Below are positions 28,923 to 64,000 of a stretch of DNA of 64,000 bases, in pieces. Position 1 is the first letter of the stretch; each line of letters opens with the position of its first letter. Below the pieces are notes generated by a model, which was given only the letters and a program-made list of their open reading frames with translations, ran no database searches and was not told where the DNA came from. The DNA is from Thermus sp. (GTDB taxonomy: Bacteria > Deinococcota > Deinococci > Deinococcales > Thermaceae), in the NCBI RefSeq assembly GCF_039793865.1, contig NZ_JBAMMI010000085.1, positions 1,101 to 65,100 on the forward strand, written 5' to 3'. The translations under genes were made by a program, and so were the position numbers.

Positions 28923-30282
28923 AAGCCGTCCCCTTGCCCACCTGGCTCTCCACCCAGACCTCCCCCCCGTGGGCCTCGAGGATGGCCTTCACGATGGCGA
29001 GGCCGAGGCCCGAGCCGCCCCTTTCCCGGTCCCGGGCCTTGTCCACTCGGTAGAAGCGTTCAAAGAGGTGGGGAAGGTGCTCCTCGGGGATCCCTTCCCC
29101 GTCGTCCTCCACCCGCACCACCGCCTTGTCCCCCAGGTCGAAGGCCCGAAGCCAGACCCGCCTCGCCCCTGCCTTGAGGGCGTTAGAGACCAGGTTGGCC
29201 ATGACCTGGTGGAGCCGGTCGGGGTCCCCCAGGACGTAAAGCTCCTCGGGGGCCTCCACCCGGATCTCCCCCTCAAAGCTCTTGGCGAACTCCTCCCGCA
29301 CCTCTTCCAGGAGGTCTAAGACCCGCACGGGCACGGGGCGGATCCTCCAAGTGCCGCTTTGGGAGAGGTCCAGGAGGTCGGAGACCAGCTTGCCCATGCG
29401 CTCCGCCTCCCGCTTCACCACCTCGAGGCTCTCCCGCTGGGCCTCGGTGAGGGGGGTGCGGCGGAGGAGGTAGCCCACGTGCCCCAGGATGGCGGTGACG
29501 GGGGTTCTGAGCTCGTGGGAGGCGTCCTGGAGGAAGCGGGTCTGGGCCTCAAAGGCCTCCTGCATCCGGGAGAGCATCCCGTTCAGGGCCTTGACCAAGG
29601 CGGCCACCTCGTCCTCGGTCTCCGGCTCGGGCAGGGGCTCGGGGCGGGCGCTCATGGCCTCGGCCTTGCGGGCCGCCCACTCCAGGGGCTCCAGGGCCCG
29701 GGCCACGAGCCTTCGGGCCAGGAACAGGACCAGGAGGAGGACGAGGAGGGCGGTCCCGGCGTAGATGCGGGCGAACTGGCTGAGGGTGGCCTCGAGGTCC
29801 TCCGTGGGCTTGCCCACCAAAAGGGCCCCCTTCCACACCGCCCCGGAGAGGTTCACCTCCACCCGGCGGGCGTAGACCAAAAGGCGCAAGGGGCTTCCCT
29901 CCCGGGGAAGGGCCACCTGGGCCCAGACCTCGCCCTTTTCCAGGAGGGCGCGGTACTGGGCCTCGCCCAGGAGAAGCCTTCCCTGCCCCAGGGCGGGGCT
30001 TTTCTGCAGGCTGATGCCCCCTTCCTTGGCCAAAAGGGCGGGGTTTTCCTCGGGGAGGAGCTGGACCTCGGCGTAGAGGCTCGGCGGGAGGCCCGCCTCC
30101 AGGAGGGCCTGCCCCCCGAGGTTGAGAAGGCGCACCACCTGGTTGCTGGCCTCTAGGAGCTCCCCCCGGAGGTTCCGGTAGAGGAAGCTCCTGAGAAGGC
30201 CTTCCAGGGCGAAGCCCAAGACCAGGAGGGCCACGAGGAGAAGCCCCGCCGTGAGGAGGGTGATCCGGGTCCTGAGGGTCAT
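28876..30282 (-). CDS. Sensor histidine kinase (HAMP-HisKA-HATPase_c)
   Basis: ATG 30282 (MTLRTRITLLTAG...), two TM segments, the H-box SHELRTPVTAI, an N-box, and G-boxes DDGEGIP / GGSGLGLAI. Confidence 0.85.
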   Translation of the reverse strand: MTLRTRITLLTAGLLLVALLVLGFALEGLLRSFLYRNLRGELLEASNQVVRLLNLGGQALLEAGLPPSLYAEVQLLPEENPALLAKEGGISLQKSPALGQGRLLLGEAQYRALLEKGEVWAQVALPREGSPLRLLVYARRVEVNLSGAVWKGALLVGKPTEDLEATLSQFARIYAGTALLVLLLVLFLARRLVARALEPLEWAARKAEAMSARPEPLPEPETEDEVAALVKALNGMLSRMQEAFEAQTRFLQDASHELRTPVTAILGHVGYLLRRTPLTEAQRESLEVVKREAERMGKLVSDLLDLSQSGTWRIRPVPVRVLDLLEEVREEFAKSFEGEIRVEAPEELYVLGDPDRLHQVMANLVSNALKAGARRVWLRAFDLGDKAVVRVEDDGEGIPEEHLPHLFERFYRVDKARDRERGGSGLGLAIVKAILEAHGGEVWVESQVGKGTAFSFSLPASGPPPPPG

Positions 30283-30307
30283 GCCGGGGGGTTGGGCGGG
30301 CCTGGGC

Positions 30308-30982
30308 TCAGTCCTCCCTGAGGACGTACCCCACCCCCCGCACCGTGTGGATGAGGCGGCGCTCCCCCCCGGCCTCCAGCTTCTTGCGCAGGTAGCCGAT
30401 GTAGACGTCCACCACGTTGCTTCCCCCTTGGTAGCCCGGCCAGACCTTCTCCTCAATCTCGTAGCGGCTGAAGACCTTGCCGGGGTTCTTGGCGAGGAGC
30501 TCCAGGAGCTCAAACTCCTTGTTGGAGAGCTCCACCCGCCGCCCGCCCCGGAAGACCTCCCGGCCCTCGAGGTTGATGATGAGGTCCGCCACCCGGATCT
30601 CCCCGGTGATGGCCGGGGTGACCCGGCGGAGGTGGGCCCGCACCCGGGCGAGGAGCTCCTCTATGGAAAAGGGCTTCACCAGGTAGTCGTCGGCCCCGGC
30701 GTCCAGGCCCGCCACCTTGTCCTCCACGCGGTCCTTGGCGGTGAGGATGAGGATGGGCACGTTGGAGGTCTTGCGGATGCGCTTGGCCACCTCAATCCCG
30801 TCCATGACGGGAAGCATCAGGTCCAGGATCACCAGGTTGGGGTTCACCTCCCGGAACTTGGAAAGCCCGGTGATGCCGTCGTGGGCCACCTCGGTGCGGT
30901 AGCCCTCCGCCTGGAGCTCTAGCTCAATGAAGCGGGCGATGTCCTTCTCGTCTTCCACGATGAGGATCAGAGGGGGTTCCAT
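30308..30982 (-). CDS. OmpR/PhoB-family response regulator
   Basis: Receiver domain (ILIVEDE, ILDLMLP, LTAK) followed by a winged-helix output domain ([19 protein letters not shown]). Confidence 0.9.
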
Positions 30983-55544: not shown

Positions 55545-56034
55545 GCCCCAAAAGCGTTTTCCCATAGCCTCAGCTCGGGTATCCCATGTTGCGAAGCCAA
55601 CGCGCGGGCACTTAGCTCGCCCCTGACCGGGGGTCGTACCCCTTTGGCGCGAATCCTCCGCCCCAAAGCCGGGTCGTACGGCTCTTTGGGAGCGTGGGGG
55701 GCTCAGGCCTGGGTGGTCCTGGGGGCTTGCCTAGGGGCGGGCACGCCTCCCCTTAAGAGGGTGTGGCCGGAGGCCAAGGCCACCCCGGCCCCGGCCAGGA
55801 CGAAGACCGCTGGGGCGCCGATCCGCCCCTCTGGGGCTCCGCCCAGCATGGTGCCGAGGAGCACGGCGGCGTTCATCACGGCGCTGATGGTCTCGAGGGC
55901 CATGGACGCCTCCACGAAGCCGAAGCCCGGCGAACCCACCCCCGGCCACCCGGTGGACCTTGCTCCCCGCCTGGGAGACCAGGTAGGAGAGGATGAGCCG
56001 GGCGAAGGCCTTGTGGCGTAAGGTGGGGATTGTA

Positions 56035-57756
56035 TCAAGATTCGGGGTGGAGGACCAGGTAGGCCACCCTGCGCCCCTCCCGGGCGAGCACCAGGGTTCC
56101 CTCGGGCAGGCGGTAGAGGAGGAGGTCCTTGAGCCGCTTTGGCACCTCCCCCGCCTGGCCCACGTAGGCCGTGTCCTCCCTGAGGCGGAGGGAGAGGACG
56201 CTACTCCCCACCTTGAGGGCCTGGGGCTCGGGGGAGAGGGAAAGGAGGTGGACCTCGCCCCCCAGGGTCTCCTGGGTGGGGGGACGGCGGCCCAGGTATT
56301 CCCGGAGGGCCTCGCCCAGGGTATGGGCCTCCCCCTCCAGGCCCAGGGCCCGGCCCACCTCCAGGAGAAAGGGAAGGGGGTCTTGGGGCCCCAGGCGCTT
56401 TAGGGTCAGCTCCAGGCCCTTGCGGGCGAAGTCCAGGAGAGCCTCTTCCGGGGCTTGGCGGTACTTTTCCGCCAGGCCGGGCCCGAAGGCCTCGGGCTGG
56501 AACTCCCCCTTGAGCCTGGCGGAGAGGGCCCGGAGGAGGCGGAGGTGGGCGTAGTCCCCCTTAGGGCTGAGGAGGAGGGCCACCACCCGCCCCTCGGAGA
56601 GCAGTTCGTAGAGGCGGAGACCGCTTCGGGCCTCCAGCCTGAGGTGGAGGAGGTCTTCCTCCCGCACCGCCCAGACCTCGAGGTCCTCCCAGGGGAGGAC
56701 CAAGGTCTCCTCCAGGGGGTGGTCCTCGCCCCCAAGGCCCAGGTGCCAGCGGCCCTCGGCCTGGCTCAGGGTGAGGGTGAGGGGGCCCAGGGGAACGCGG
56801 CCCGGCCGCAAGGGAAGGGTGGCCAGGTTCTCTCCCACCCGGCCAGGGGGGGGCACCTCGGGCCAGGGGGTTTCCCCTTGAGGGGTGGGGAGGAGGTTGA
56901 GGAGGGCGAGGACCTTCTCCAGGGCCACGCGGAACCGGCGCCTCTCCTCCTCCAGGAGGAGCTCCCTCCGCCGCTCTTCCAGGGCCTCCTGTTTGAGGCG
57001 TTCCTCCAGGCGGGCGATCTCCTTAGGCCCTGCCCCGAGCCTTCGCGCCTCCTCCAGGGCCCGCCTCAGGGCGGCGAGGTCCCGCCTGGGGGAGAGGCCG
57101 TAGGCCCCGTCCCAGTCCAGGAGGCGGTTGAGGAAGCGGCGCACGTAGGTGCGGGTTTCCTCGGGGGGCAGGGGGAGGTCCTGGGGCAGGCGCAGGGCGG
57201 TCTCCAGGTACTCCAGGAGGAGGGCCTCGGCCACCTTGGGGTCCTCGAGGTCCACCAGGGGGTCCGAGAGGGCGGGGATGGGGTGGGTGGGGACGAAGCG
57301 GGCCAGGTTGAAGTCCCGCCGGAAGCCCTCCTGCTCCCGGTAGGCCCCGTAGTTCTGCAGAAAGGCGTGGACGAGCCTCAGTTCCTCACGCCTGCCCGAG
57401 AGGAAGTCCTTGGCCCGGTTTTTCACCTCCCGCTCGGCGAGGAGGCGCCACACCTTCAGGGAGATCCTCTTGAGGCGCTCCTGGATCTCGTCCTCCTGGG
57501 GGGCTTCGGGCTCCTCGAGGAGGAGGGCGGGGAGGTCTGGGGGAGCCGGGGGGGCTTGGGGAGTCCCGCCCCGCAGGGCCCGGAGGCGGGCGTCGGCCTG
57601 GCGGAAACGCTTGGCGAGGGGCGGGGGGAGGCGGGAGTCCGCCAGGAGGGCCCTAAGCTCCAGGAGGGCCCGCTTCCCCCCTTTGGGGGTGCGGCCCTGG
57701 AGAAGGTCCTCCACCCGGTACTCGTAGAGGTCCACCAGGTCGGCCAGGCGCTCCAC
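56035..57756 (-). CDS. Hypothetical 573-aa protein, no family recognised
   Basis: Long ORF with normal Thermus codon bias and a balanced composition (Y, W, K, F present), unlike the Gly/Pro/Glu/His-rich antisense ORF 56455-57963. GTG start lies 8 nt after a TATAGG box. Confidence 0.7.
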   Translation of the reverse strand: MERLADLVDLYEYRVEDLLQGRTPKGGKRALLELRALLADSRLPPPLAKRFRQADARLRALRGGTPQAPPAPPDLPALLLEEPEAPQEDEIQERLKRISLKVWRLLAEREVKNRAKDFLSGRREELRLVHAFLQNYGAYREQEGFRRDFNLARFVPTHPIPALSDPLVDLEDPKVAEALLLEYLETALRLPQDLPLPPEETRTYVRRFLNRLLDWDGAYGLSPRRDLAALRRALEEARRLGAGPKEIARLEERLKQEALEERRRELLLEEERRRFRVALEKVLALLNLLPTPQGETPWPEVPPPGRVGENLATLPLRPGRVPLGPLTLTLSQAEGRWHLGLGGEDHPLEETLVLPWEDLEVWAVREEDLLHLRLEARSGLRLYELLSEGRVVALLLSPKGDYAHLRLLRALSARLKGEFQPEAFGPGLAEKYRQAPEEALLDFARKGLELTLKRLGPQDPLPFLLEVGRALGLEGEAHTLGEALREYLGRRPPTQETLGGEVHLLSLSPEPQALKVGSSVLSLRLREDTAYVGQAGEVPKRLKDLLLYRLPEGTLVLAREGRRVAYLVLHPES

Positions 57757-57772
57757 GCTCCCATCCTATACA

Positions 57773-58537
57773 ATGGACGGGATGCGCCTCGCCCCCCGGT
57801 TCCAGGTGGCCGCCGTTTCCCACGTGGGGCGCCGCCAGAACAACGAGGACTTCCACCGGGTGCTCCGCCTCGAGGTGCCCCCGGGCGACCTCCTCCTCCT
57901 GGCGGTGGCCGACGGCATGGGGGGCATGGAGGCGGGGGAGTGGGCGAGCAAGGTGGCCATTGAGGCCCTCTCCCAGGCGGCGCGGGCCTACGCCGAGCAC
58001 TTGAAGGGAGGCCGCTCCGCCGTGGGGCTCCCCAGGGTGATGGAGAAGGCCTTCACTCTGGCCCAAAGGAGGGTGGAGGGGGAGGCGGAAAGGCTCGGAA
58101 AGCGGGGGATGGGCACCACCCTCACCGCCCTCCTCTACGCCGACTGGCTGAAGGAGGGGGTGGTGGGCCACATCGGGGACTCCCGGGCCTACCGCTTCGG
58201 TCCCCAGGGGCTTTCCCGCCTCACGGAGGACCACTCCTGGGTGGCGGAGCGGGTGCGGGAAGGCGTTTTGACCCCCACCGAGGCGGAGCGCCACCCCTAC
58301 CGCCACGTCCTCACCCGGGCCCTGGGGCTTCCCGAGGCCCGCTTTGACCTCCTCCCGGTGCGCCTCCTCCCGGGGGAAGGGGTGCTCCTGGTGACCGACG
58401 GGCTTTACGGCCTCTTGCCTGAAGAGGAGTGGCTTCTCGGCAAGGACCTGCAGGGGAGCCTCGAGGCCCTGGTGGCCGAGGCGCTTAGGCGCGGCGGGGA
58501 CGACAACATCACCGCCGTGGCCCTCAGGGTGGAGTGA
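57773..58537 (+). CDS. PP2C-family Ser/Thr protein phosphatase
   Basis: GRRQNNEDF, AVADGMGG, GTTLTAL, GDSRAY, TDGL and DDNIT motifs are present. The start may instead be ATG 57782. Confidence 0.9.
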   Translation: MDGMRLAPRFQVAAVSHVGRRQNNEDFHRVLRLEVPPGDLLLLAVADGMGGMEAGEWASKVAIEALSQAARAYAEHLKGGRSAVGLPRVMEKAFTLAQRRVEGEAERLGKRGMGTTLTALLYADWLKEGVVGHIGDSRAYRFGPQGLSRLTEDHSWVAERVREGVLTPTEAERHPYRHVLTRALGLPEARFDLLPVRLLPGEGVLLVTDGLYGLLPEEEWLLGKDLQGSLEALVAEALRRGGDDNITAVALRVE

Positions 58538-60492
58538 TGCACCTGCTCCTTTCCCTCCTCCTCGTTCTCCTCACCGCGGCCTTGGCCGCGCGGCTTTCCC
58601 CTTGGCCCCTCTTCCTCCTCCTCGCCCTCCTTGCCGGGGCGGGGATGGCCCTCGGGGTGCGGCCGGAGGCGGCCCTCCCCTGGCTCCTCCTGGCCCTGGG
58701 GACCCTGGCGGCTCCCCGGGTGTACCTGGGTCCTAGGCGCAGGTCCCCCAGGCGGAGGCCCGCCCGGGAAAAGAACCCCACCCGCACCAAGACCACGGAG
58801 GAGGAAAAGGCCCTCTCCCAGCGCTACGAGGTCCTGGAGAAGGTGGGGGTGGGGGGGATGGCCACGGTCTACAAAGCCAAAGACAAGAAGACGGGCCGCC
58901 TGGTGGCCTTAAAGGTGCCCCAGGAGCGCTTCGTGGGCGACCCCCGCTTCGTCCGCCGCTTCCACCGGGAGGCGGAGGTGCTGGCCAAGCTGGACCACCC
59001 CAGCATCGTCAAGGTCTACGACCACGGCCAGGTGGACGGGGTCCACTTCATCGCCATGGAGTTTTTGGAGGGGGAGGGGTTGGACAAGCTCATTGAGGAG
59101 CGGCGCCTGAACCTCAGGCAGGCCGCCGCCATCCTCGCCCGGGTGGCGGACGCCCTCCGGCACATCCACGCCCAGGGCATCGTCCACCGGGACATCAAGC
59201 CGGGGAACATCATGGTCCTCAAGGGGGCCCTCCGGGAGGACGGGGTGGACCCGAGGGGGGTGCGCCTCATGGATTTCGGCATCGCCGCCGGGAAGGTCCT
59301 CACCCGCCTCACCATCACCGGGGTCCGGATCGGCACCCCGGTCTACATGAGCTCCGAGCAGGCCAAGGGGCAGAACCTGGACCACCGCTCGGACATCTAC
59401 TCCCTGGGCATCGTCCTCTACGAGGCCCTGACCGGACAGCCCCCCTTCACCGGGGGGTACGAGACGGTGATCCACCAGCAGATCTTCCAGATGCCCACGC
59501 CCCCCAAGCAGCTTAGGCCCGAGATCCCCCAGGCCCTCTCCGACCTGGTGCTCAAGATGCTGGAGAAGGACCCGGCCAAGCGGCCCGCCCTGGAAGAGGT
59601 CATCCGGGTCCTGGAGGGCCCCTGGGACGAGGAGCGGGGCCTTGCCCATCCCCACTACCTCCTCCTCGGGGTGGAGGCCAAGAAGGGCACGGTGCGCCTT
59701 CTGGACCTCGAGGGCACCCCGGCCCGCCTCCTCTCGGGCATCGGCTCGGCCCCCGGGCACTTCCCCGCCCCGCCCCTGGCGGTGGCCGCCGACCCCGAGG
59801 GGGGGGTCTGGGTTTCGGTCTTTGAGCACGGGGCCAAGATGCTCCACCGCTTCTCCCCCGAAGGGGAGCTCCTCCTCTCCGTGGGGCCCTACGGCATGAA
59901 GCCCGGGGAGTTCCTCTTTCCCCTGGGCCTGGCCGTGGCCGACGGCGCCCTTTTCGTCCTGGACGGGGAGACGGCCACCATCACCCGCCTGGACCTGAAG
60001 GGCCACTACCAGGCCCGCTTCGGGGGACACGGCCCGGGCCGGGGAAGCTTTCAAGACCCCAAGGCCCTGGTGGCCTCGGGGGAGTTCCTCTTCGTCCTGG
60101 ACTACGGCAACCGCCAGGTGCAGCGGCTTTCCTTGGACGGGCGCTACCTCTCCCGCTACGCCTTCCGGCGCTCCAAGGAGAGCGAGGACCTCAGGCTCCT
60201 GGGGGGCGTGGGGGCTTCGGGGGAGAGGCTTTACCTTTACGATGCCGAGGCGGGCAAGGTGCGGGAGCTGGACCTCTCCGGGGCCCTCCTTGGCTCCTAC
60301 GCCCTGCCCCTCCTGGAAGGGGAGGACCGCATGAGCCTGGTGGAGCTTCTTCCCTTTGGGGGCATCCTCTACGCCGCCCGGCGGGGGAGCACCCGCATCC
60401 ACCGCCTAGACCTCAGGACCGGCGAGCCCCTTCCCCCCCTGGAGGTCTACGCCCCGGTGCGGGCCCTTGCCCTTTGGCGGAATCCGGCATGA
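58534..60492 (+). CDS. Hanks-type Ser/Thr protein kinase with N-terminal triple TM anchor and C-terminal NHL-repeat beta-propeller
   Basis: Three hydrophobic helices, then a basic linker, then the kinase domain (GVGGMATVYKA, VALK, HRDIKPGNIM, DFG, SSEQ). NHL repeats follow (G.PGEFLFPLGLAVADGALFVLD, GRGSFQDPKALVASGEFLFVLDYGNRQVQRL ...). The start overlaps the PP2C stop. Confidence 0.9.
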   Translation: MMHLLLSLLLVLLTAALAARLSPWPLFLLLALLAGAGMALGVRPEAALPWLLLALGTLAAPRVYLGPRRRSPRRRPAREKNPTRTKTTEEEKALSQRYEVLEKVGVGGMATVYKAKDKKTGRLVALKVPQERFVGDPRFVRRFHREAEVLAKLDHPSIVKVYDHGQVDGVHFIAMEFLEGEGLDKLIEERRLNLRQAAAILARVADALRHIHAQGIVHRDIKPGNIMVLKGALREDGVDPRGVRLMDFGIAAGKVLTRLTITGVRIGTPVYMSSEQAKGQNLDHRSDIYSLGIVLYEALTGQPPFTGGYETVIHQQIFQMPTPPKQLRPEIPQALSDLVLKMLEKDPAKRPALEEVIRVLEGPWDEERGLAHPHYLLLGVEAKKGTVRLLDLEGTPARLLSGIGSAPGHFPAPPLAVAADPEGGVWVSVFEHGAKMLHRFSPEGELLLSVGPYGMKPGEFLFPLGLAVADGALFVLDGETATITRLDLKGHYQARFGGHGPGRGSFQDPKALVASGEFLFVLDYGNRQVQRLSLDGRYLSRYAFRRSKESEDLRLLGGVGASGERLYLYDAEAGKVRELDLSGALLGSYALPLLEGEDRMSLVELLPFGGILYAARRGSTRIHRLDLRTGEPLPPLEVYAPVRALALWRNPA

Positions 60493-61139
60493 GGGTTCTT
60501 CTGGTGGAGGACGACCCCGGGGTGCGGGAGGCCTTGGAGCTTGGCCTCTCCCTGGAGGGGTACCAAGTGCGGGCCGTGGACCGGCCCAAAGAGGCCTTAG
60601 GGCTCCTTCCCTGGGCCGAGGCGGTGGTCCTGGACATCCTCCTGCCCGAGGGGGACGGGTTTTCCCTCCTCAAGGAGATCCGCGCCCGCTCGGAGGTGCC
60701 GGTCCTCATCCTCACCGCCCTGGAGGAGGTGGAGTGGCGGGTAAAGGGGCTGAGGGAGGGGGCGGACGATTACCTGGTGAAGCCCTACAGCCTCCAGGAG
60801 CTCCTGGCCCGCCTCGAGGCCCTGGCCCGCCGGGCGAGGAGGCGGGAGGAGGTCCTCGCCTACAAGGACCTCCGCCTCTACCCTAGGCGCATGGAGGCCT
60901 TCCGCGGGGAAAGGCGCCTCGCCCTTTCCCCCAAAGCCTTCCTCCTCCTCAAGGTCTTCTTGGAACGCCCGGAGGAGGTGATTCCCAAGGAAGCCCTGAT
61001 GCTTAGGGTCTGGGGGGAGCCCGTGGAGCCTGCCACCCTCGAGGTCCACCTCTCCGCCCTCCGGAAGGCCCTGGGGGAGCCCAGCCCCCTCCAGACGGTG
61101 CGCGGGTATGGCTACCGCCTTTTCCTCCCTGAGGGCTAG
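60489..61139 (+). CDS. OmpR-family response regulator
   Basis: MRVLLVEDD, VLDILLP and LTAL receiver motifs followed by a winged helix (LSPKAFLLLKVF, VRGYGYRL). ATG 60489 overlaps the kinase stop as ATGA. Confidence 0.9.
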   Translation: MRVLLVEDDPGVREALELGLSLEGYQVRAVDRPKEALGLLPWAEAVVLDILLPEGDGFSLLKEIRARSEVPVLILTALEEVEWRVKGLREGADDYLVKPYSLQELLARLEALARRARRREEVLAYKDLRLYPRRMEAFRGERRLALSPKAFLLLKVFLERPEEVIPKEALMLRVWGEPVEPATLEVHLSALRKALGEPSPLQTVRGYGYRLFLPEG

Positions 61140-62412
61140 GCTCTTCGCCCTCCTCCTCCTCGCCCTTCTCCTCCTCCTCGCCCCCCTGGCCTGGCTTTCC
61201 GCCCGGGAGGCGGAGCGGGCCGCGAGCGAGGACCTGAGGCGGGCCCTCTATACCCGGCTCTACCTCCTCCAGGCGGAGGGGGTGAGGGACGAGGAGCAGC
61301 TCCTCCTTGAGCTTTTCCGCCTGGCCCAGCTCTTCGGGGGCGGGGTGGGGTTTGTCCTCCGGGGGGGCGTGGCCCGGTTCACCCAGCTCGGGGACTGGCC
61401 TTTGCCCCCCGGGCTTCCCGCGGCTTTGGCGGCGGAAGGGGTCTACCAGGGGGTCTTTCGGGGGACGCTCTATGTGGCCCTGGCCCAAGGGGGGCTCGCC
61501 TATGGCCTCGGGGTACCCCTGGAAGGGGTTTCCGCCCTGGGGAGGCGGCTTCTCCTCCTCTACGCCACCTGGGGCGGGGGGCTTTTGCTTGGGGTCTTCC
61601 TCCTCGCCGCCCTCGCCCTTTCCTGGGCCCTCCGTCCCCTCCGGGAGCTGGAAAAGGCCTTGCGGGCCCGGGCCCCCGAGGACCTAAGCCCCCTCCCCGA
61701 CCCGGGCCTGGCCGAGCTCAGGCCAGTGGTGGCGGCGCTGAACGCCCTTTTCGCCCGGGTGGGGAGGCTCCTCGCCGAGCTCGCCGAGAAGGAGGAGGCG
61801 GCCCGGCGCTTCGCCCGCCACGCCTCCCACGAGCTCCGCACCCCCCTCACCGCCCTCAAGGGCTACCTGGAGGTGCTCCGCCGCAAAAACGAGCCCCGGG
61901 CCCTGGAGGGGGCCTTGCGGGAGGCCGGGCGCATGGAGGCCCTCCTCGCGGGGCTTCTCCGCCTCGCCCGCCTCGAGGCCCACCCCCTTTCCCCAAGGCC
62001 CTTGGACCTACGGGCCTTCCTGCGGGAGAGGGGGGTGGAGGCGGAGGGGGAGGGGGTGGTCCTGGCCGACCCTGAGCTTTTGGCCCTGGCGGTGGAGAAC
62101 GTCCTGGAGAACGCCCGCCGCCACGGCAGGCTTCCCGTGCGGGCGGAGCTTTCCCGGGAAGGAGAGGGGGTCTGGGTCTGGCTCGTGGACTCGGGGCCTG
62201 GTTTCCCCGAGCCCCTCCTGCCCCGGGTCCTGGAGCCCTTCGTGCACGGGGGGAAGGGGACGGGCCTGGGCCTCGCCCTGGTGGCCGCCGTGGCCCGGGC
62301 CCACGGGGGCAAGGCGCGGGCGGAAAACCGTGGGGGGGCAGGGGTGGGGCTTTTCCTGCCTTTGGCTTCCCTTAAGGTTTCCCCCGGTGCGCCCTTTGGG
62401 GAGGAGGGCTAG
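61108..62412 (+). CDS. Sensor histidine kinase (two TM, HisKA-HATPase_c)
   Basis: H-box ASHELRTPLTAL, N-box NVLENARRH, and G-boxes DSGPGFP / GTGLGLALV. The start is uncertain; ATG 61108 overlaps the RR gene by 32 nt. Confidence 0.85.
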   Translation: MATAFSSLRARLFALLLLALLLLLAPLAWLSAREAERAASEDLRRALYTRLYLLQAEGVRDEEQLLLELFRLAQLFGGGVGFVLRGGVARFTQLGDWPLPPGLPAALAAEGVYQGVFRGTLYVALAQGGLAYGLGVPLEGVSALGRRLLLLYATWGGGLLLGVFLLAALALSWALRPLRELEKALRARAPEDLSPLPDPGLAELRPVVAALNALFARVGRLLAELAEKEEAARRFARHASHELRTPLTALKGYLEVLRRKNEPRALEGALREAGRMEALLAGLLRLARLEAHPLSPRPLDLRAFLRERGVEAEGEGVVLADPELLALAVENVLENARRHGRLPVRAELSREGEGVWVWLVDSGPGFPEPLLPRVLEPFVHGGKGTGLGLALVAAVARAHGGKARAENRGGAGVGLFLPLASLKVSPGAPFGEEG

Positions 62413-62437
62413 CCTGGGCGCCGGGAGGTGATGGGAA

Positions 62438-62974
62438 GTGAAGGGAGCGGCTTTGGGCGCGCTGGTTCTTTTGGCGGGCCTTTCCCTGGCCCAGCAGGCG
62501 GACTACCGTATGGAGGCCCGGGCGGCCCTTGCCCTCTCCCAGCTGGAGCGGGTGGCCGGGCTGGCGGGGGGGGAGGAGAAGCTCCTCGCCTGGGCCAAGG
62601 AGGTGAAGGCCCGGGCGGAGAAGAGCCACGAGGCCAAGGCCTACTTCAAGGTCCTCCGGGAGGCCCAGGCGGCCCTTTTGCTTTACCGGGCCGCCCAAGG
62701 GGAGCCGAAGCTTAAGGCCCGGCCCCAGGCCCGCATGGGCTTTCACCACGGCTTCGGCCCGAAGGGCTGGGGCGGGAAAGGCGTGGACCTCAGGGCTCGG
62801 GCCCAGGCCGTCTCGGACCGGGCGGAGAAGGAGCTCGCCTACTACCGGGGCCAGGACCCCTTGGTGAAGGACCTGGTGGCCGAGGCCAAGAACCGGTTGG
62901 AGAAGGAGCCCGGCCGGGCCTGGATGCTGGCCCGGGCGGCCTTGGCCCTGATCTCGGCGGAGCGGGGCTTCTGA
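62438..62974 (+). CDS. Secreted all-helical protein, no family recognised (CpxP/Spy/ZraP-like context)
   Basis: Signal peptide MKGAALGALVLLAGLSLAQQ. The mature part is Ala/Lys/Glu/Arg-rich and predicted helical, with a central GFHHGFGPKGWGGKG loop. GTG start is preceded by GGGAGGTG. Confidence 0.6.
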   Translation: MKGAALGALVLLAGLSLAQQADYRMEARAALALSQLERVAGLAGGEEKLLAWAKEVKARAEKSHEAKAYFKVLREAQAALLLYRAAQGEPKLKARPQARMGFHHGFGPKGWGGKGVDLRARAQAVSDRAEKELAYYRGQDPLVKDLVAEAKNRLEKEPGRAWMLARAALALISAERGF

Positions 62975-62994
62975 GGCCGCACCGGGATTGACCC

Positions 62995-63402
62995 ATGCGC
63001 TGGCCCGTGCTCCTCCTCGCCTTCTTTGGGATGGCCCTGGGGGGGGAGCCCGGGCCTTTTTCGGAGGAGGCCGTCCTCCTGCGCTGCGCCGAGGTGGTGC
63101 GGGCCCTCGAGGTCCTGGCCCTCTACCGGGAGGGGGGGGCCACCCTGGTCCTCCTGGGGCGGGAGAGGCCCCTCCTCCTCCTGGCCCTGGAGGGGGAGAG
63201 ACCCTACCCCCACCTGGGCCCTCCCCGGGGCAGGCCCCTTCCCCGTAGGCCCTTGCCTTTCCTGAGGGAGTTCTCCCTGGCCCGGCGGGTGGTGGTCCTG
63301 CCGGGAGAGTACCGCTGCTTCGTCCTCCACCGGGGCCGGGTGGTGGGGGTGGTGCGTCTGGGGGAGGACCTCCGTCCCCTGCCCCTGCCCCAGGGCCCTT
63401 GA
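62995..63402 (+). CDS. Secreted hypothetical protein
   Basis: Signal-like N-terminus MRWPVLLLAFFGMALG and good GC3. No family was recognised. Confidence 0.5.
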   Translation: MRWPVLLLAFFGMALGGEPGPFSEEAVLLRCAEVVRALEVLALYREGGATLVLLGRERPLLLLALEGERPYPHLGPPRGRPLPRRPLPFLREFSLARRVVVLPGEYRCFVLHRGRVVGVVRLGEDLRPLPLPQGP

Positions 63403-63422
63403 GGGGGTAGAATGCCCCTCGT

Positions 63423-64000
63423 ATGAAGCCCGCTTTGGGGCCCGGGCTTTATCCCCTTTTAGGCCCCCCGGCCTCGGGGAAGACCCGGCTCGTCCTGGCC
63501 CACGCCCTGGAAGCCCTTAGGGCGCGGGGGCGGGTGTGGTGGGTGGGCCTGCCCCACCAGCGCGTTTACGTTCAGGAGCTTTTCGGCAGGGAGGGGCCCT
63601 TTTTGGGCCTGGAGTACCTCTCCTTCCAGGCCCTCTACTACCGGGCGCTGGCCGAGGCGGGTTGGCTTCGCCCCCTCCTTCCGGGGGCGGGGCGGGTGGC
63701 CCTGGTGGCCGAGGCCCTGCGGGAGCTCCATGGCCCTGGGGTAGCCCCCGGGGAGGCCCGGCTTTTCGCCCGGGCCATCGCCGAGCTCAAGCGCTTTGGG
63801 CTTTCCCCCTTCGCCCTGCCCAAGGAGGGGGAGGCGGGGAGGCTGAGGCGGGTCTACCTGGCCTACGAGCGCCTGAAGCGGGGAAGCCTGGATTACGATG
63901 ACTTCCGCCGCCTGGCGCTCAAGGTTCCCCTTCGCCTCTTCCCGAGGCCGCACCTGGTGGTGGTGGACGGTTTCCGGGAGGTGGGGCCCTTGGACTTGGC
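63423..64000 (+). CDS. P-loop NTPase, N-terminal part of a probable AddB/RecB-type helicase-nuclease subunit (3' end beyond window)
   Basis: It is open from ATG 63423 to the end of the window, so it is not in the ORF track. Walker A LLGPPASGKT is present, and VVVDGFRE resembles Walker B. A TAGAAT box lies 9 nt upstream. Confidence 0.45.
   Translation, partial: MKPALGPGLYPLLGPPASGKTRLVLAHALEALRARGRVWWVGLPHQRVYVQELFGREGPFLGLEYLSFQALYYRALAEAGWLRPLLPGAGRVALVAEALRELHGPGVAPGEARLFARAIAELKRFGLSPFALPKEGEAGRLRRVYLAYERLKRGSLDYDDFRRLALKVPLRLFPRPHLVVVDGFREVGPLDL

What the first reader, a model, noticed from the sequence alone, without database searches (positions are those of the whole stretch)
57773..63402. 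Single operon fusing PP2C phosphatase, Hanks kinase, OmpR/HisKA two-component pair and two secreted proteins
Seen in sequence: six plus-strand genes run without real gaps. The PP2C stop overlaps the kinase start (GTGA/ATG at 58534-58539). The kinase stop overlaps the response-regulator start (ATGA at 60489-60492). The RR and HK genes overlap by up to 32 nt. Two signal-peptide proteins follow after 25-nt and 20-nt gaps. Established: Hanks kinases and their PP2C partners are commonly co-operonic, and two-component pairs are commonly co-operonic. Cross-phosphorylation of response regulators by Hanks kinases has been documented in a few bacteria. Inference: obligatory translational coupling of a Ser/Thr kinase to an OmpR-type regulator suggests a hard-wired hybrid pathway in which the RR integrates His-Asp and Ser/Thr phosphorylation. 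The two secreted proteins would be the likely envelope output or accessory sensors. This specific six-gene architecture is not one I recognise as described.
Basis: partly seen in the sequence, partly recalled or inferred. Interest (0 to 1): 0.65.

Follow-up and report, generated by a model that had tools for sequence, protein, structure and literature searches.

The report
Thermus kinase/phosphatase–two-component composite operon
Six tightly packed signalling genes are real and conserved across the genus Thermus, but they are two older, independent modules (a Ser/Thr kinase/phosphatase pair and a two-component system with two periplasmic partners) brought together by a deletion, and nothing yet shows that they cross-phosphorylate.

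Summary
Six plus-strand genes (PP2C, Hanks kinase, OmpR-type regulator, HAMP/HisKA kinase, two signal-peptide proteins) lie at 57773-63402 with the stated stop/start overlaps. The same order and junctions occur in 12 other Thermus genomes.

- The kinase has N-terminal membrane helices and a C-terminal NHL propeller, with no helix between kinase and propeller.
- PP2C probably starts at 57782, 7 nt after a conserved TATAAT/TACAAT box, so the mRNA may be leaderless.

The "hard-wired hybrid pathway" reading is only partly supported.
- PP2C-kinase occurs without any two-component genes throughout Trueperaceae/Deinococcales.
- In Truepera, regulator-kinase-sec1-sec2 forms a separate cluster.
- In one Meiothermus genome the two modules sit about 9 kb apart on one strand, with eight unrelated genes between them. 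Thermus apparently lost that stretch.
- Several T. thermophilus strains carry a 2,244-nt deletion that destroys the two-component system; where the full genes are readable (L084), PP2C and the kinase are intact.
- The regulator is canonical. It has Val at the WalR-Thr101 position and no Thermus-specific Ser/Thr.

RNA-derived contigs are consistent with co-transcription but do not prove it. Verdict: a genus-specific composite operon, moderately interesting mainly as a natural test bed for kinase/two-component cross-talk.

The parts
57773..58537 (+). PP2C (PPM) Ser/Thr phosphatase. Likely true start is ATG 57782 (251 aa).
   Evidence: Pfam PP2C_2 E=7.6e-14. NCBIfam Stp1/IreP 168.8 bits, below its 230-bit cutoff. 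The second ATG is invariant and the first lies inside a conserved -10 box. 251-aa gene calls in relatives.
57767..57774 (+). Conserved TATACAAT / TATAAT box, 7 nt upstream of ATG 57782. Candidate -10 element of a leaderless operon promoter.
   Evidence: Alignment of 13 Thermus loci. The strict sigma-70 two-hexamer scan found nothing, so this is an inference from conservation and spacing only.
58534..60492 (+). Hanks-type Ser/Thr kinase. N-terminal membrane helices (about aa 1-62, nt 58534-58719), kinase domain (aa 98-357, nt 58825-59604), NHL beta-propeller (aa about 366-652, nt 59629-60489).
   Evidence: Pkinase E=2.2e-52. PknB kinase domains E~1e-50. NHL domains of Thin/TRIM71/TRIM2/3 E=1.5e-22 to 1.4e-17. 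Hydropathy shows hydrophobic helices only at the N-terminus. K127, HRD218-220, N225 and DFG247-249 are invariant across the phylum.
58534..58539 (+). PP2C stop / kinase start overlap (GTGATG).
   Evidence: The same GTGATG occurs in 11 of 12 Thermus loci; T. composti has GGATGA.
60489..60492 (+). Kinase stop / RR start overlap (ATGA).
   Evidence: ATGA is kept in all loci except T. thermophilus, which has GTGA.
60489..61139 (+). OmpR/PhoB-family response regulator (REC aa 3-109, winged-helix aa 142-211). D8, D9, D49, T76 and K98 are present.
   Evidence: Pfam. NCBIfam best hits PhoB/PmrA/CopR are all below their cutoffs. Residues read from the alignment.
61108..62412 (+). Sensor histidine kinase. 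TM1 aa 12-30, periplasmic loop of about 125 aa, TM2 aa 157-175, HAMP, HisKA (H-box FARHASHELRTP), HATPase_c. Overlaps the RR gene by 32 nt.
   Evidence: Orthologues at about 50% identity over about 90% of the length in Meiothermus, Calidithermus and Truepera.
62424..62431 (+). Shine-Dalgarno GGAGGTGA for sec1, inside the 25-nt HK-sec1 spacer.
   Evidence: Invariant in 13 Thermus loci.
62438..62974 (+). sec1: signal-peptide protein made of two predicted three-helix bundles joined by a variable His/Gly/Met/Pro-rich disordered linker. The C-terminus ...ALISAERGF is conserved.
   Evidence: 84 homologues, all named ones from Thermus. Alignment A1. AlphaFold pLDDT 83.6. No significant PDB fold match. 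Profile match to the 253-aa protein after the HK in Truepera: hhalign 93.5%, E=2.4e-7.
62995..63402 (+). sec2: signal-peptide protein, one helix plus 8-9 beta strands, with an invariant Cys31 and a nearly invariant Cys108 (probable disulfide).
   Evidence: 37 homologues, all Thermus where named. Alignment A2. AlphaFold pLDDT 86.9. No significant PDB match. Homologous to the Meiothermus 175-aa protein between HK and AddB (hhalign 97.1%, E=6e-11). Weaker match to the Truepera 188-aa protein (68.8%).
56035..57756 (-). Divergently transcribed 573-aa protein of unknown function. A conserved neighbour of PP2C-kinase in Thermus, Meiothermus and Calidithermus, but not in Trueperaceae.
   Evidence: tblastn synteny. 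No Pfam, NCBIfam or PADLOC family.

Best explanation
This is a composite operon specific to the genus Thermus. It was made by fusing two older, self-sufficient signalling modules.

Module A is a PP2C phosphatase plus a membrane-anchored Hanks Ser/Thr kinase. The kinase domain and the NHL propeller both sit on the cytoplasmic side, because there is no membrane helix between them.

Module B is a canonical OmpR-type response regulator, its HAMP/HisKA sensor kinase and two periplasmic accessory proteins (sec1, sec2).

In the common ancestor of Thermus, the roughly 9 kb that still separates the two modules in Meiothermus was deleted. That stretch holds peroxiredoxin, amine oxidase, photolyase, fasciclin, DUF4397, hydrolase, YceI and TetR genes. 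The deletion trimmed a few codons from the kinase 3' end and the RR 5' end and produced the ATGA overlap.

Since then the two-component genes have lacked their own upstream region. They are most likely expressed from the conserved promoter in front of PP2C (candidate -10 box TATAAT/TACAAT, leaderless start at 57782) and translated by coupling.

Shown here: the anatomy, the conservation, the independent existence of both modules, the intermediate gene order in Meiothermus, and natural loss of module B with module A kept.

Inferred: single-promoter transcription, and that each module keeps its own chemistry (Ser/Thr phosphorylation reversed by PP2C; His-to-Asp transfer from HK to RR). On this view the main consequence of the fusion is co-expression at the membrane, not an obligatory phosphotransfer link.

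The signal sensed by module B is unknown. A copper or envelope-redox role is a weak lead from SCO1/SenC and a Cu-monooxygenase-like gene inside the Meiothermus version.
For: Anatomy and domains.

Genus-wide conservation of order and junctions in 12 other Thermus genomes.

Module A occurs alone. PP2C-kinase(NHL) is found in about 30 Trueperaceae/Deinococcales loci, and in Meiothermus/Calidithermus it is followed by unrelated genes.

Module B occurs alone. Truepera radiovictrix has RR-HK-253aa-188aa with no kinase within 7 kb. The 253-aa protein matches the sec1 profile, and the 188-aa protein matches sec2 and its Meiothermus homologue.

Intermediate state. Meiothermus GCA_004152925.1 reads, on one strand: kinase, a 47-aa ORF, AhpC, amine oxidase, photolyase, fasciclin, DUF4397, hydrolase, YceI, TetR, RR, HK, SCO1, a Cu2_monoox-like gene, the sec2 homologue, AddB-like, AddA. 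AddB-like and AddA also follow sec2 in the window and in T. oshimai.

Ends are trimmed relative to Meiothermus: the kinase ends about 4 aa earlier and the RR starts 5 aa later.

Natural experiment. A 2,244-nt in-frame deletion with 5-nt microhomology makes an RR(1-~112)::sec2 fusion in several T. thermophilus strains and in T. parvatiensis. PP2C (251 aa) and the kinase (652 aa) are intact in L084.

Transcription. No terminator-like site lies at any gene junction. A 5,248-nt contig from an RNA-seq run of a Thermus isolate is colinear with 57816-62972, that is PP2C through sec1. Compost metatranscriptome contigs bridge the kinase-RR junction with even depth across the block: 27.2/26.1/23.3/27.6 in X25 and 21.7/18.6/16.9/16.2/18.1 in X26. 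A conserved -10-like box lies 7 nt before the invariant ATG.
Against: Transcript evidence is indirect. The contigs have no strand, may include DNA, reach 50-150 kb in the same runs, and one crosses the divergent promoter.

No -35 element was recognised, and the strict promoter scan found nothing.

The Meiothermus intermediate is seen in one genome. In Calidithermus and another Meiothermus, the 10 kb after the kinase lacks the RR-HK pair, and one metagenomic Thermaceae contig has TetR-RR-HK in another context. The order of rearrangements is therefore an inference.

The block has stayed fused, with a 4-nt overlap, throughout the radiation of the genus. That is compatible with selection for a functional link.

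T. parvatiensis has lost the two-component genes and also has a fragmented kinase, which could hint at joint dispensability.
Confidence: 0.6

Rival explanations
1. The fusion is functional: the Hanks kinase (reversed by PP2C) phosphorylates the OmpR-type regulator, or its histidine kinase, on Ser/Thr. The regulator then integrates His-Asp and Ser/Thr inputs, and sec1/sec2 act as envelope partners.
For: - Translational coupling (ATGA) is conserved across the genus.
- In every Thermus locus examined, the two-component genes lie next to the kinase.
- None of 33 Hanks-kinase loci from other phyla fetched in the same scan has an adjacent RR/HK, so the adjacency is unusual.
- There is precedent for kinase-to-OmpR-family regulator phosphorylation: PrkC to WalR Thr101 (PMC4478028), and CovR, GraR, VraR and DosR as listed in PMC6213207.
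- Both kinases are membrane proteins, so they could meet.
Against: - Both modules exist and are conserved separately in relatives.
- A natural allele removes the two-component system and, in L084, leaves PP2C and the kinase intact.
- The RR has Val97 where WalR has Thr101.
- Every Ser/Thr invariant in Thermus RRs is also present in at least one outgroup (Meiothermus or Truepera) orthologue that is not fused to a kinase.
- No FHA or other phospho-Thr reader is in the block.
- Gene adjacency by deletion needs no functional link.
Confidence: 0.2
2. The block is not one transcription unit. Promoters embedded in coding sequence (in the kinase 3' end for RR-HK, in the HK 3' end for sec1, and/or before sec2) keep the modules transcriptionally independent despite the overlaps.
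For: - The last ~25 codons of HK and the spacer to sec1 are unusually conserved at the nucleotide level (third-position conservation 0.86-0.91).
- The sec1-sec2 spacer varies from 0 to about 170 nt and carries a 13-bp-stem hairpin in T. caliditerrae and T. scotoductus.
- In the isolate RNA-seq run, the contig ends between sec1 and sec2, and the next contig has a different depth (230 vs 558).
Against: - No sigma-70-like site was found anywhere in 57000-64000.
- There is no peak of synonymous-site conservation in the last 400 nt of the kinase gene.
- RNA-library contigs bridge the kinase-RR junction at even depth.
- Overlapping stop/start codons leave no room for an untranslated leader.
Confidence: 0.15
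3. The kinase is part of an anti-phage defence system (a PD-T4-6 or MADS-type Ser/Thr kinase) and the block is a defence island.
For: PADLOC PD-T4-6 and mad6 models match the kinase domain (E down to 2e-85). The NCBIfam MAD6 model scores 172.7 bits.
Against: - The matches cover only the generic kinase domain (aa ~88-354), and the NCBIfam score is far below its cutoff (460).
- No other protein of the block hits PADLOC.
- The locus is a stable, syntenic chromosomal neighbourhood (hemB ... AddB/AddA) across a whole phylum, with a cognate PP2C. This is unlike mobile defence islands.
Confidence: 0.02

Closest known systems
Stk1/Stp1-type pairs (PknB/PstP, PrkC/PrpC, StkP/PhpP): a PP2C phosphatase gene co-transcribed with a Hanks kinase
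   Same: PP2C lies immediately upstream of, and overlaps, a Hanks kinase whose kinase domain is most similar to PknB, PknA and StkP. Co-operonic pairing is the rule for this class (PMC6213207).
   Different: There are no PASTA repeats. The PASTA-kinase model matches only its kinase part (positions 2-256 of 563; 306.5 bits vs cutoff 450). The membrane anchor is N-terminal rather than between the kinase and sensor domains. The extra domain is an NHL propeller on the same side as the kinase domain.
PknD of Mycobacterium tuberculosis (Hanks kinase with an NHL beta-propeller sensor). The architecture is recalled from my own knowledge.
   Same: Hanks kinase domain plus NHL-repeat propeller in one polypeptide.
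   Different: In PknD a transmembrane helix separates the cytoplasmic kinase from an extracellular propeller. Here hydropathy shows helices only at aa 1-62, so the propeller is predicted to be cytoplasmic. The NCBIfam PknD model scores 139.6 bits against a cutoff of 839.
PrkC to WalR (and Stk1 to CovR/GraR/VraR, PknH to DosR): Ser/Thr kinase cross-talk onto response regulators
   Same: The players are the same kinds: a Hanks kinase with its PP2C, and an OmpR-family regulator with its own histidine kinase (PMC4478028; PMC6213207).
   Different: In the known cases I am aware of, the kinase and the two-component system are encoded at separate loci (my knowledge; not checked in the papers read). 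Here they are fused into one block, but phosphorylation is untested. The WalR Thr101-equivalent residue is Val97.
Two-component systems with dedicated periplasmic accessory proteins encoded alongside (e.g. CpxAR-CpxP, ZraSR-ZraP). Recalled from my own knowledge.
   Same: RR-HK are followed by small signal-peptide proteins that have stayed with them since before the Thermus/Truepera split. sec1 is an all-helical periplasmic protein with a His/Gly/Met-rich segment.
   Different: There is no sequence or fold match to CpxP, Spy, ZraP or any solved structure. The accessory role is inferred from gene order only.

Membership tests
Hanks-type (eukaryote-like) Ser/Thr protein kinase | Protein-kinase fold with Gly-loop, catalytic Lys, HRD...N catalytic loop, DFG and an activation loop ending in (A/S)PE | tested here: met
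   Pfam Pkinase E=2.2e-52. GVGGMATV, K127, H218-R-D220...N225, D247-F-G and an activation loop with T257/T260/T262/T268 are all present. They are invariant from Thermus to Trueperaceae, except that SPE is SSE in the window.
PASTA kinases (Stk1/PknB/PrkC equivalog) | Extracellular PASTA repeats after a transmembrane helix | tested here: not met
   NF033483 scores 306.5 bits against a cutoff of 450. Only profile positions 2-256 of 563 match. The C-terminal half is NHL.
PknD-like NHL sensor kinases | NHL beta-propeller | tested here: met
   aa 366-652 match solved NHL domains at E=1.5e-22 to 1.4e-17. Pfam NHL E=2.9e-4.
PknD-like NHL sensor kinases | Propeller placed outside the cell, separated from the kinase by a transmembrane helix | tested here: not met
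   A Kyte-Doolittle scan finds hydrophobic helices only within aa 1-62. The 458-478 peak lies in a propeller strand. NF009651 PknD scores 139.6 bits against a cutoff of 839.
PPM/PP2C Ser/Thr phosphatase (Stp1/IreP type) | PP2C fold with metal-binding Asp motifs; cognate kinase adjacent | tested here: met
   PP2C_2 E=7.6e-14. DGMGG, GDSR, TDGL and DDN motifs are visible in the translation. The kinase gene overlaps its stop codon. The Stp1 equivalog cutoff itself is not reached (168.8 vs 230 bits), so membership is claimed for the family, not the equivalog.
OmpR/PhoB-family response regulator | Receiver domain with the acidic pocket, phospho-acceptor Asp, Thr/Ser and Lys, plus a C-terminal winged-helix domain | tested here: met
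   Response_reg E=2.6e-23 and Trans_reg_C E=2.5e-17. D8, D9, D49, T76 and K98 are present. No specific equivalog (PhoB, PmrA, CopR, TctD...) reaches its cutoff.
Class I (HisKA) transmembrane sensor histidine kinase | Two TM helices flanking a periplasmic loop, HAMP, HisKA with the phospho-His, HATPase_c | tested here: met
   TM at aa 12-30 and 157-175. HisKA E=5.9e-16 and HATPase_c E=3.7e-15 pass their cutoffs; HAMP is weaker (E=1.5e-4, 22.4 bits, below its 25-bit cutoff). The H-box HASHELRTP is present.
Kinase-regulated response regulators of the WalR type | Thr/Ser immediately before the conserved receiver Lys (WalR Thr101-Lys102) | tested here: not met
   The RR reads DDYLV97-K98 in the Thermus and outgroup orthologues displayed. 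The WalR site is taken from PMC4478028.
   Needs biochemistry or phosphoproteomics. T. thermophilus kinases for the phosphosites examined in PMC12667214 are still unidentified.
Single operon | One primary transcript covering all six genes | tested here: inconclusive
   There is no terminator-like site at any junction, and RNA-library contigs bridge PP2C to sec1, and to sec2 in X29. These are strand-less assemblies that may contain DNA. A break between sec1 and sec2 is seen in one run.

The most novel reading that the evidence does not exclude
After the deletion joined the two modules, the Thermus lineage may have fixed the fusion because the membrane-anchored kinase and PP2C directly tune the adjacent two-component system. 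For example, the cytoplasmic NHL propeller could dock the regulator or the histidine kinase, and the kinase could phosphorylate it. That would make a translationally coupled Ser/Thr plus His-Asp circuit that exists as one operon, with natural TCS-deletion alleles serving as built-in controls.
Probability: 0.15. Interest if true: 0.6.

Novelty: new variant of a known kind. Interest (0 to 1): 0.33.

Why it matters
All four enzyme classes are well known, and kinase-to-regulator cross-talk has been shown in Firmicutes and Actinobacteria. Those cases involve separately encoded partners, as far as I know.

Thermus offers a rarer setting:
- Both systems are fused into one translationally coupled block.
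- The pre-fusion state is preserved in sister genera.
- Natural alleles have lost one half.

This gives a clean, genetically tractable and thermostable system for two questions:
- Does gene fusion by genome streamlining create, or merely accompany, signalling cross-talk?
- What are the first substrates of a Thermus Ser/Thr kinase? None are known (PMC12667214).

The analysis also defines two conserved periplasmic protein families without known folds (sec1, sec2). They travel with this two-component system across Deinococcota.

Tried and rejected
- The strict sigma-70 promoter scan of 57000-64000 found nothing. The five terminator-like hits were fewer than in shuffles and none lay at a junction.
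- Third-codon-position conservation was tried as a probe for embedded promoters. It was dominated by GC3 bias. It gave no peak in the kinase 3' end and only a modest one at the HK 3' end.
- Foldseek of confident AlphaFold models of sec1 and sec2 against the PDB gave no hit with E<=0.001.
- The 'DUF4398' label that UniRef gives some sec1 homologues was not reproduced in any of 38 members or in the window protein at E<=10.
- The weak polyubiquitin hits of the 573-aa neighbour had no individually significant stretch and were judged spurious.
- sec1 is not homologous to the Meiothermus 175-aa protein or to the Cu-monooxygenase-like protein.
No RNA data exist for the window's own organism, which comes from a hot-spring metagenome.
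- A search for Thermus-specific Ser/Thr in the RR found none.
- Literature searches found no paper describing this locus or a Thermus kinase/two-component operon.
- The defence-system reading was rejected.
- I could not establish whether strains HB8 and HB27 carry the intact or the deleted allele.

Full report
OBSERVATION

The junctions can be read directly in the sequence:
- The PP2C stop TGA (58535-58537) sits inside GTGATG, so the kinase start (GTG 58534 or ATG 58537) overlaps or abuts it.
- The kinase stop and the regulator start share ATGA (60489-60492).
- The regulator and histidine-kinase genes overlap by 32 nt.
- A 25-nt spacer with a perfect GGAGGTGA Shine-Dalgarno (62424-62431) precedes sec1 (GTG 62438).
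- A 20-nt spacer precedes sec2.

Domain calls are secure (Pfam, NCBIfam):
- PP2C_2: E=7.6e-14.
- Pkinase: E=2.2e-52.
- Response_reg plus Trans_reg_C.
- HAMP plus HisKA plus HATPase_c.

None of the specific NCBIfam equivalogs reaches its cutoff (PASTA kinase, PknD, PhoB/PhoR, PmrAB, CopRS, TctD, CpxAR). The proteins are therefore members of the broad families only.

- The kinase has hydrophobic helices only at its N-terminus (aa 1-62, followed by PRRRSPRRRP).
- Its C-terminal 287 residues are a clear NHL beta-propeller (E=1.5e-22 to solved NHL domains).
- With no helix between kinase and propeller, both are predicted to be cytoplasmic. My recollection is that mycobacterial PknD differs in this respect.
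- Catalytic residues of the kinase are invariant from Thermus to Trueperaceae.
- The regulator has D8/D9/D49/T76/K98, and the histidine kinase has its H-box. Both systems look enzymatically competent and canonical.

CONSERVATION WITHIN THERMUS

A scan of one genome per species returned the kinase orthologue with flanks. tblastn with all window proteins, plus two look-ups, shows the same six genes in the same order in these genomes:
- T. arciformis, caliditerrae, thalpophilus, tenuipuniceus, composti, igniterrae, scotoductus and altitudinis.
- Two Thermus MAGs.
- T. thermophilus (some strains) and T. oshimai.

Protein identities are 62-93%. The junctions are conserved:
- GTGATG.
- ATGA (GTGA in T. 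thermophilus).
- A 26-32-nt RR/HK overlap.
- The SD before sec1.

The sec1-sec2 spacer is the only loose joint. It ranges from 0 to about 170 nt, with a 13-bp-stem hairpin insert in T. caliditerrae and T. scotoductus.

The downstream neighbour differs between lineages. It is AddB-like/AddA in the window and T. oshimai, and rplY/pth in T. thermophilus. The block therefore ends after sec2.

Upstream, a divergent 573-aa protein of unknown function is conserved in Thermus, Meiothermus and Calidithermus.

The alignment of the divergent intergenic region shows an invariant ATGCGCCT at 57782. It is preceded, after exactly 7 variable nucleotides, by CTATA(C)AAT, which is a perfect TATAAT in five species and TACAAT in seven, the window included. 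The first ATG (57773) is part of that box. I therefore think PP2C starts at 57782 on a leaderless mRNA. This fits the 251-aa gene calls in relatives. It is an inference from conservation and spacing, because the strict two-hexamer scan found nothing.

ORIGIN OF THE ARRANGEMENT

This part changes the interpretation.

(a) PP2C plus kinase(NHL) is found as an adjacent pair in about 30 Trueperaceae/Deinococcales loci and in Meiothermus/Calidithermus. None of these has an RR or HK within 10 kb. The next genes are a peroxiredoxin and unrelated enzymes, or convergent genes.

(b) The histidine kinase has clear orthologues, at about 50% identity over about 90% of the length including the sensor loop, in Meiothermus, Calidithermus and Truepera.

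(c) In Truepera radiovictrix the cluster is RR-HK-253aa-188aa, with no kinase nearby. The 253-aa protein matches the sec1 profile (hhalign 93.5%, E=2.4e-7). The 188-aa protein matches sec2 (68.8%) and the Meiothermus sec2 homologue. RR-HK-sec1-sec2 is thus an old four-gene module of its own.

(d) In Meiothermus GCA_004152925.1 a single strand reads:
- kinase(NHL), a 47-aa ORF, AhpC, amine oxidase, photolyase, fasciclin, DUF4397, hydrolase, YceI, TetR,
- then RR, HK, SCO1/SenC, a Cu2_monoox_C-like gene, a 175-aa protein,
- then AddB-like and AddA.

The 175-aa protein is homologous to sec2 (97.1%, E=6e-11). The same AddB-like/AddA pair follows sec2 in the window and in T. oshimai.

The simplest reading is that the Thermus ancestor deleted the roughly 9 kb between the kinase stop and the RR start. 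The kinase is about 4 residues shorter, and the RR 5 residues shorter, than their Meiothermus orthologues.

Caveats: this intermediate order is documented in one genome. Calidithermus and another Meiothermus lack RR-HK in the 10 kb after the kinase, and another Thermaceae contig has TetR-RR-HK elsewhere.

A NATURAL KNOCK-OUT

The sec2 search returned a 233-aa protein with a receiver domain. It is an in-frame RR(1-~112)::sec2 fusion created by a 2,244-nt deletion with 5-nt microhomology, CCTGG.

The fusion occurs in several T. thermophilus strains (e.g. SNM11, and the strain encoding VCU52289) and in T. parvatiensis. It removes the DNA-binding domain, the histidine kinase and sec1.

In one such locus (L084), PP2C (251 aa) and the kinase (652 aa, all motifs present) are intact. 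The kinase pair evidently persists without the two-component system. In T. parvatiensis the kinase is additionally fragmented and the 573-aa neighbour is gone.

TRANSCRIPTION

No terminator-like hairpin lies at any junction between the six genes. No RNA data exist for the window's own organism, which comes from a hot-spring metagenome.

In an RNA-seq run of a Thermus isolate, one 5,248-nt assembled contig is colinear with 57816-62972, that is PP2C to the end of sec1. Neighbouring contigs of different depth start beyond the divergent promoter and within sec2.

In four compost metatranscriptomes, contigs of a Thermus relative bridge the kinase-RR junction. Piece depths are flat across the block: 27.2/26.1/23.3/27.6 in one run and 21.7/18.6/16.9/16.2/18.1 in another.

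This is what one polycistronic mRNA would give. But the contigs are strand-less, may contain DNA, and in these runs can be far longer than operons. I rate co-transcription as likely, not shown.

CROSS-PHOSPHORYLATION

I looked for sequence traces of a kinase-regulator link and found none.
- The position equivalent to WalR Thr101, directly before the conserved Lys (PMC4478028), is Val97.
- The six Ser/Thr positions invariant in Thermus regulators (68, 76, 101, 183, 189, 203) are each shared with at least one unfused outgroup orthologue in Meiothermus or Truepera.
- There is no FHA or other phospho-Thr reader in or beside the block.

In favour of a link:
- The adjacency is unusual. None of 33 Hanks-kinase loci from other phyla in the same scan has an adjacent RR/HK.
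- The fusion has been kept throughout the genus.

No paper in the searchable library describes this locus. A 2025 study states that the kinases responsible for the T. thermophilus phosphosites it examined are not yet identified (PMC12667214).

THE TWO 'SECRETED' PROTEINS

Both have signal-peptide-like N-termini. By sequence search they are restricted to Thermus (84 and 37 clusters), but profiles reach Meiothermus and Truepera.

- sec1 is predicted, with pLDDT 83.6, as two three-helix bundles joined by a disordered, highly variable linker rich in His, Gly, Met and Pro.
- sec2 is predicted, with pLDDT 86.9, as a helix packed on 8-9 beta strands, with an invariant Cys31 and a nearly invariant Cys108.
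- Neither has a significant PDB fold match.

They belong evolutionarily to the two-component module, not to the kinase.

In Meiothermus, a SCO1/SenC copper chaperone and a Cu-monooxygenase-like protein are inserted between the HK and the sec2 homologue. Together with the His/Met-rich sec1 linker, this gives a weak lead towards copper or envelope-redox sensing. It is no more than a lead.

VERDICT

The architecture is a genuine, genus-wide composite operon. The comparative record shows it was assembled by deletion from two independent modules. Module A (PP2C plus kinase) occurs without module B both in other genera and in T. thermophilus deletion strains. Module B (RR, HK, sec1, sec2) occurs without module A only in other genera.

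The 'hard-wired hybrid pathway' is a legitimate but unsupported hypothesis, which I put at about 0.15-0.2. I class the finding as a new variant of known kinds. Its moderate interest comes mainly from its value as a natural, thermostable test bed for cross-talk between a kinase pair and a two-component system.

Noticed in passing
L084:4031-4732, L039:11616-12332 (T. thermophilus strains, T. parvatiensis): A 2,244-nt in-frame deletion with 5-nt microhomology (CCTGG) fuses RR codons 1-~112 to sec2 from about codon 16. The product is a 233-aa receiver::sec2 protein that databases annotate as 'response regulator' or 'CzcR'. PP2C and the kinase are intact in L084. The kinase is fragmented in T. parvatiensis.
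   Followed up: yes
window 55730-56024 (- strand): Only three short remnants are left of the MFS transporter gene that lies between hemB and the 573-aa gene in most other Thermus genomes examined. They correspond to aa 3-29, 238-258 and 341-393 of a 397-aa protein. The window carries a decayed pseudogene. T. composti also looks degraded here.
   Followed up: partly
window 57757-57781: The TATA(C)AAT box may serve both divergent genes. On the minus strand, its complement TATAGG lies about 8 nt before the GTG start (57756) of the 573-aa gene. Both divergent genes could therefore be leaderless from back-to-back -10 elements.
   Followed up: no
L002:14484-14520, L013:7562-7600 (between sec1 and sec2): An insert of about 100-170 nt begins with a perfect hairpin (CCCCACCCTGGCC...GGCCAGGGTGGGG) without a T-run. 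It is present in T. caliditerrae and T. scotoductus and absent from the window. It may be a repeat element or an attenuator.
   Followed up: no
window 62325-62437: The last ~25 codons of the histidine-kinase gene (peptide ...GAPFGEEG) and the spacer to sec1 are nearly invariant at the nucleotide level across 13 Thermus loci. This is more than the protein needs. It could be an embedded regulatory element for sec1.
   Followed up: partly
L092:11483-13482 (Meiothermus GCA_004152925.1): In Meiothermus, a SCO1/SenC copper chaperone and a 467-aa Cu2_monoox_C-like protein sit between the HK and the sec2 homologue, in the place of sec1. A TetR gene directly precedes the RR in Meiothermus and Calidithermus.
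   Followed up: partly
L081:4099-6055 vs L080:4097-6055 (T. thermophilus): The deposited genome AP024270 has the kinase split into 618 and 45 aa. An independent assembly of reads with an otherwise identical locus gives an intact 652 aa. This is probably a sequencing error or a strain-level frameshift.
   Followed up: no
window 28957-30967 (- strand): A second, paralogous OmpR-type RR (41% identity to the Meiothermus orthologue of the RR studied here) and a histidine kinase are encoded elsewhere in the window.
   Followed up: no
window 63423-63998 (+), runs off the window end: The gene after sec2 is the start of an AddB-like (PDDEXK) protein with a Walker-A motif. It is 52% identical to the Meiothermus AddB-like protein and is followed by an AddA/UvrD-type helicase in T. 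oshimai.
   Followed up: partly
window 56035-57756 (-): The 573-aa divergent neighbour has no family in Pfam, NCBIfam or PADLOC. Its polyubiquitin hits in the PDB have no individually significant stretch and look spurious. Its strict linkage to PP2C-kinase in Thermaceae suggests a functional tie that I did not resolve.
   Followed up: partly
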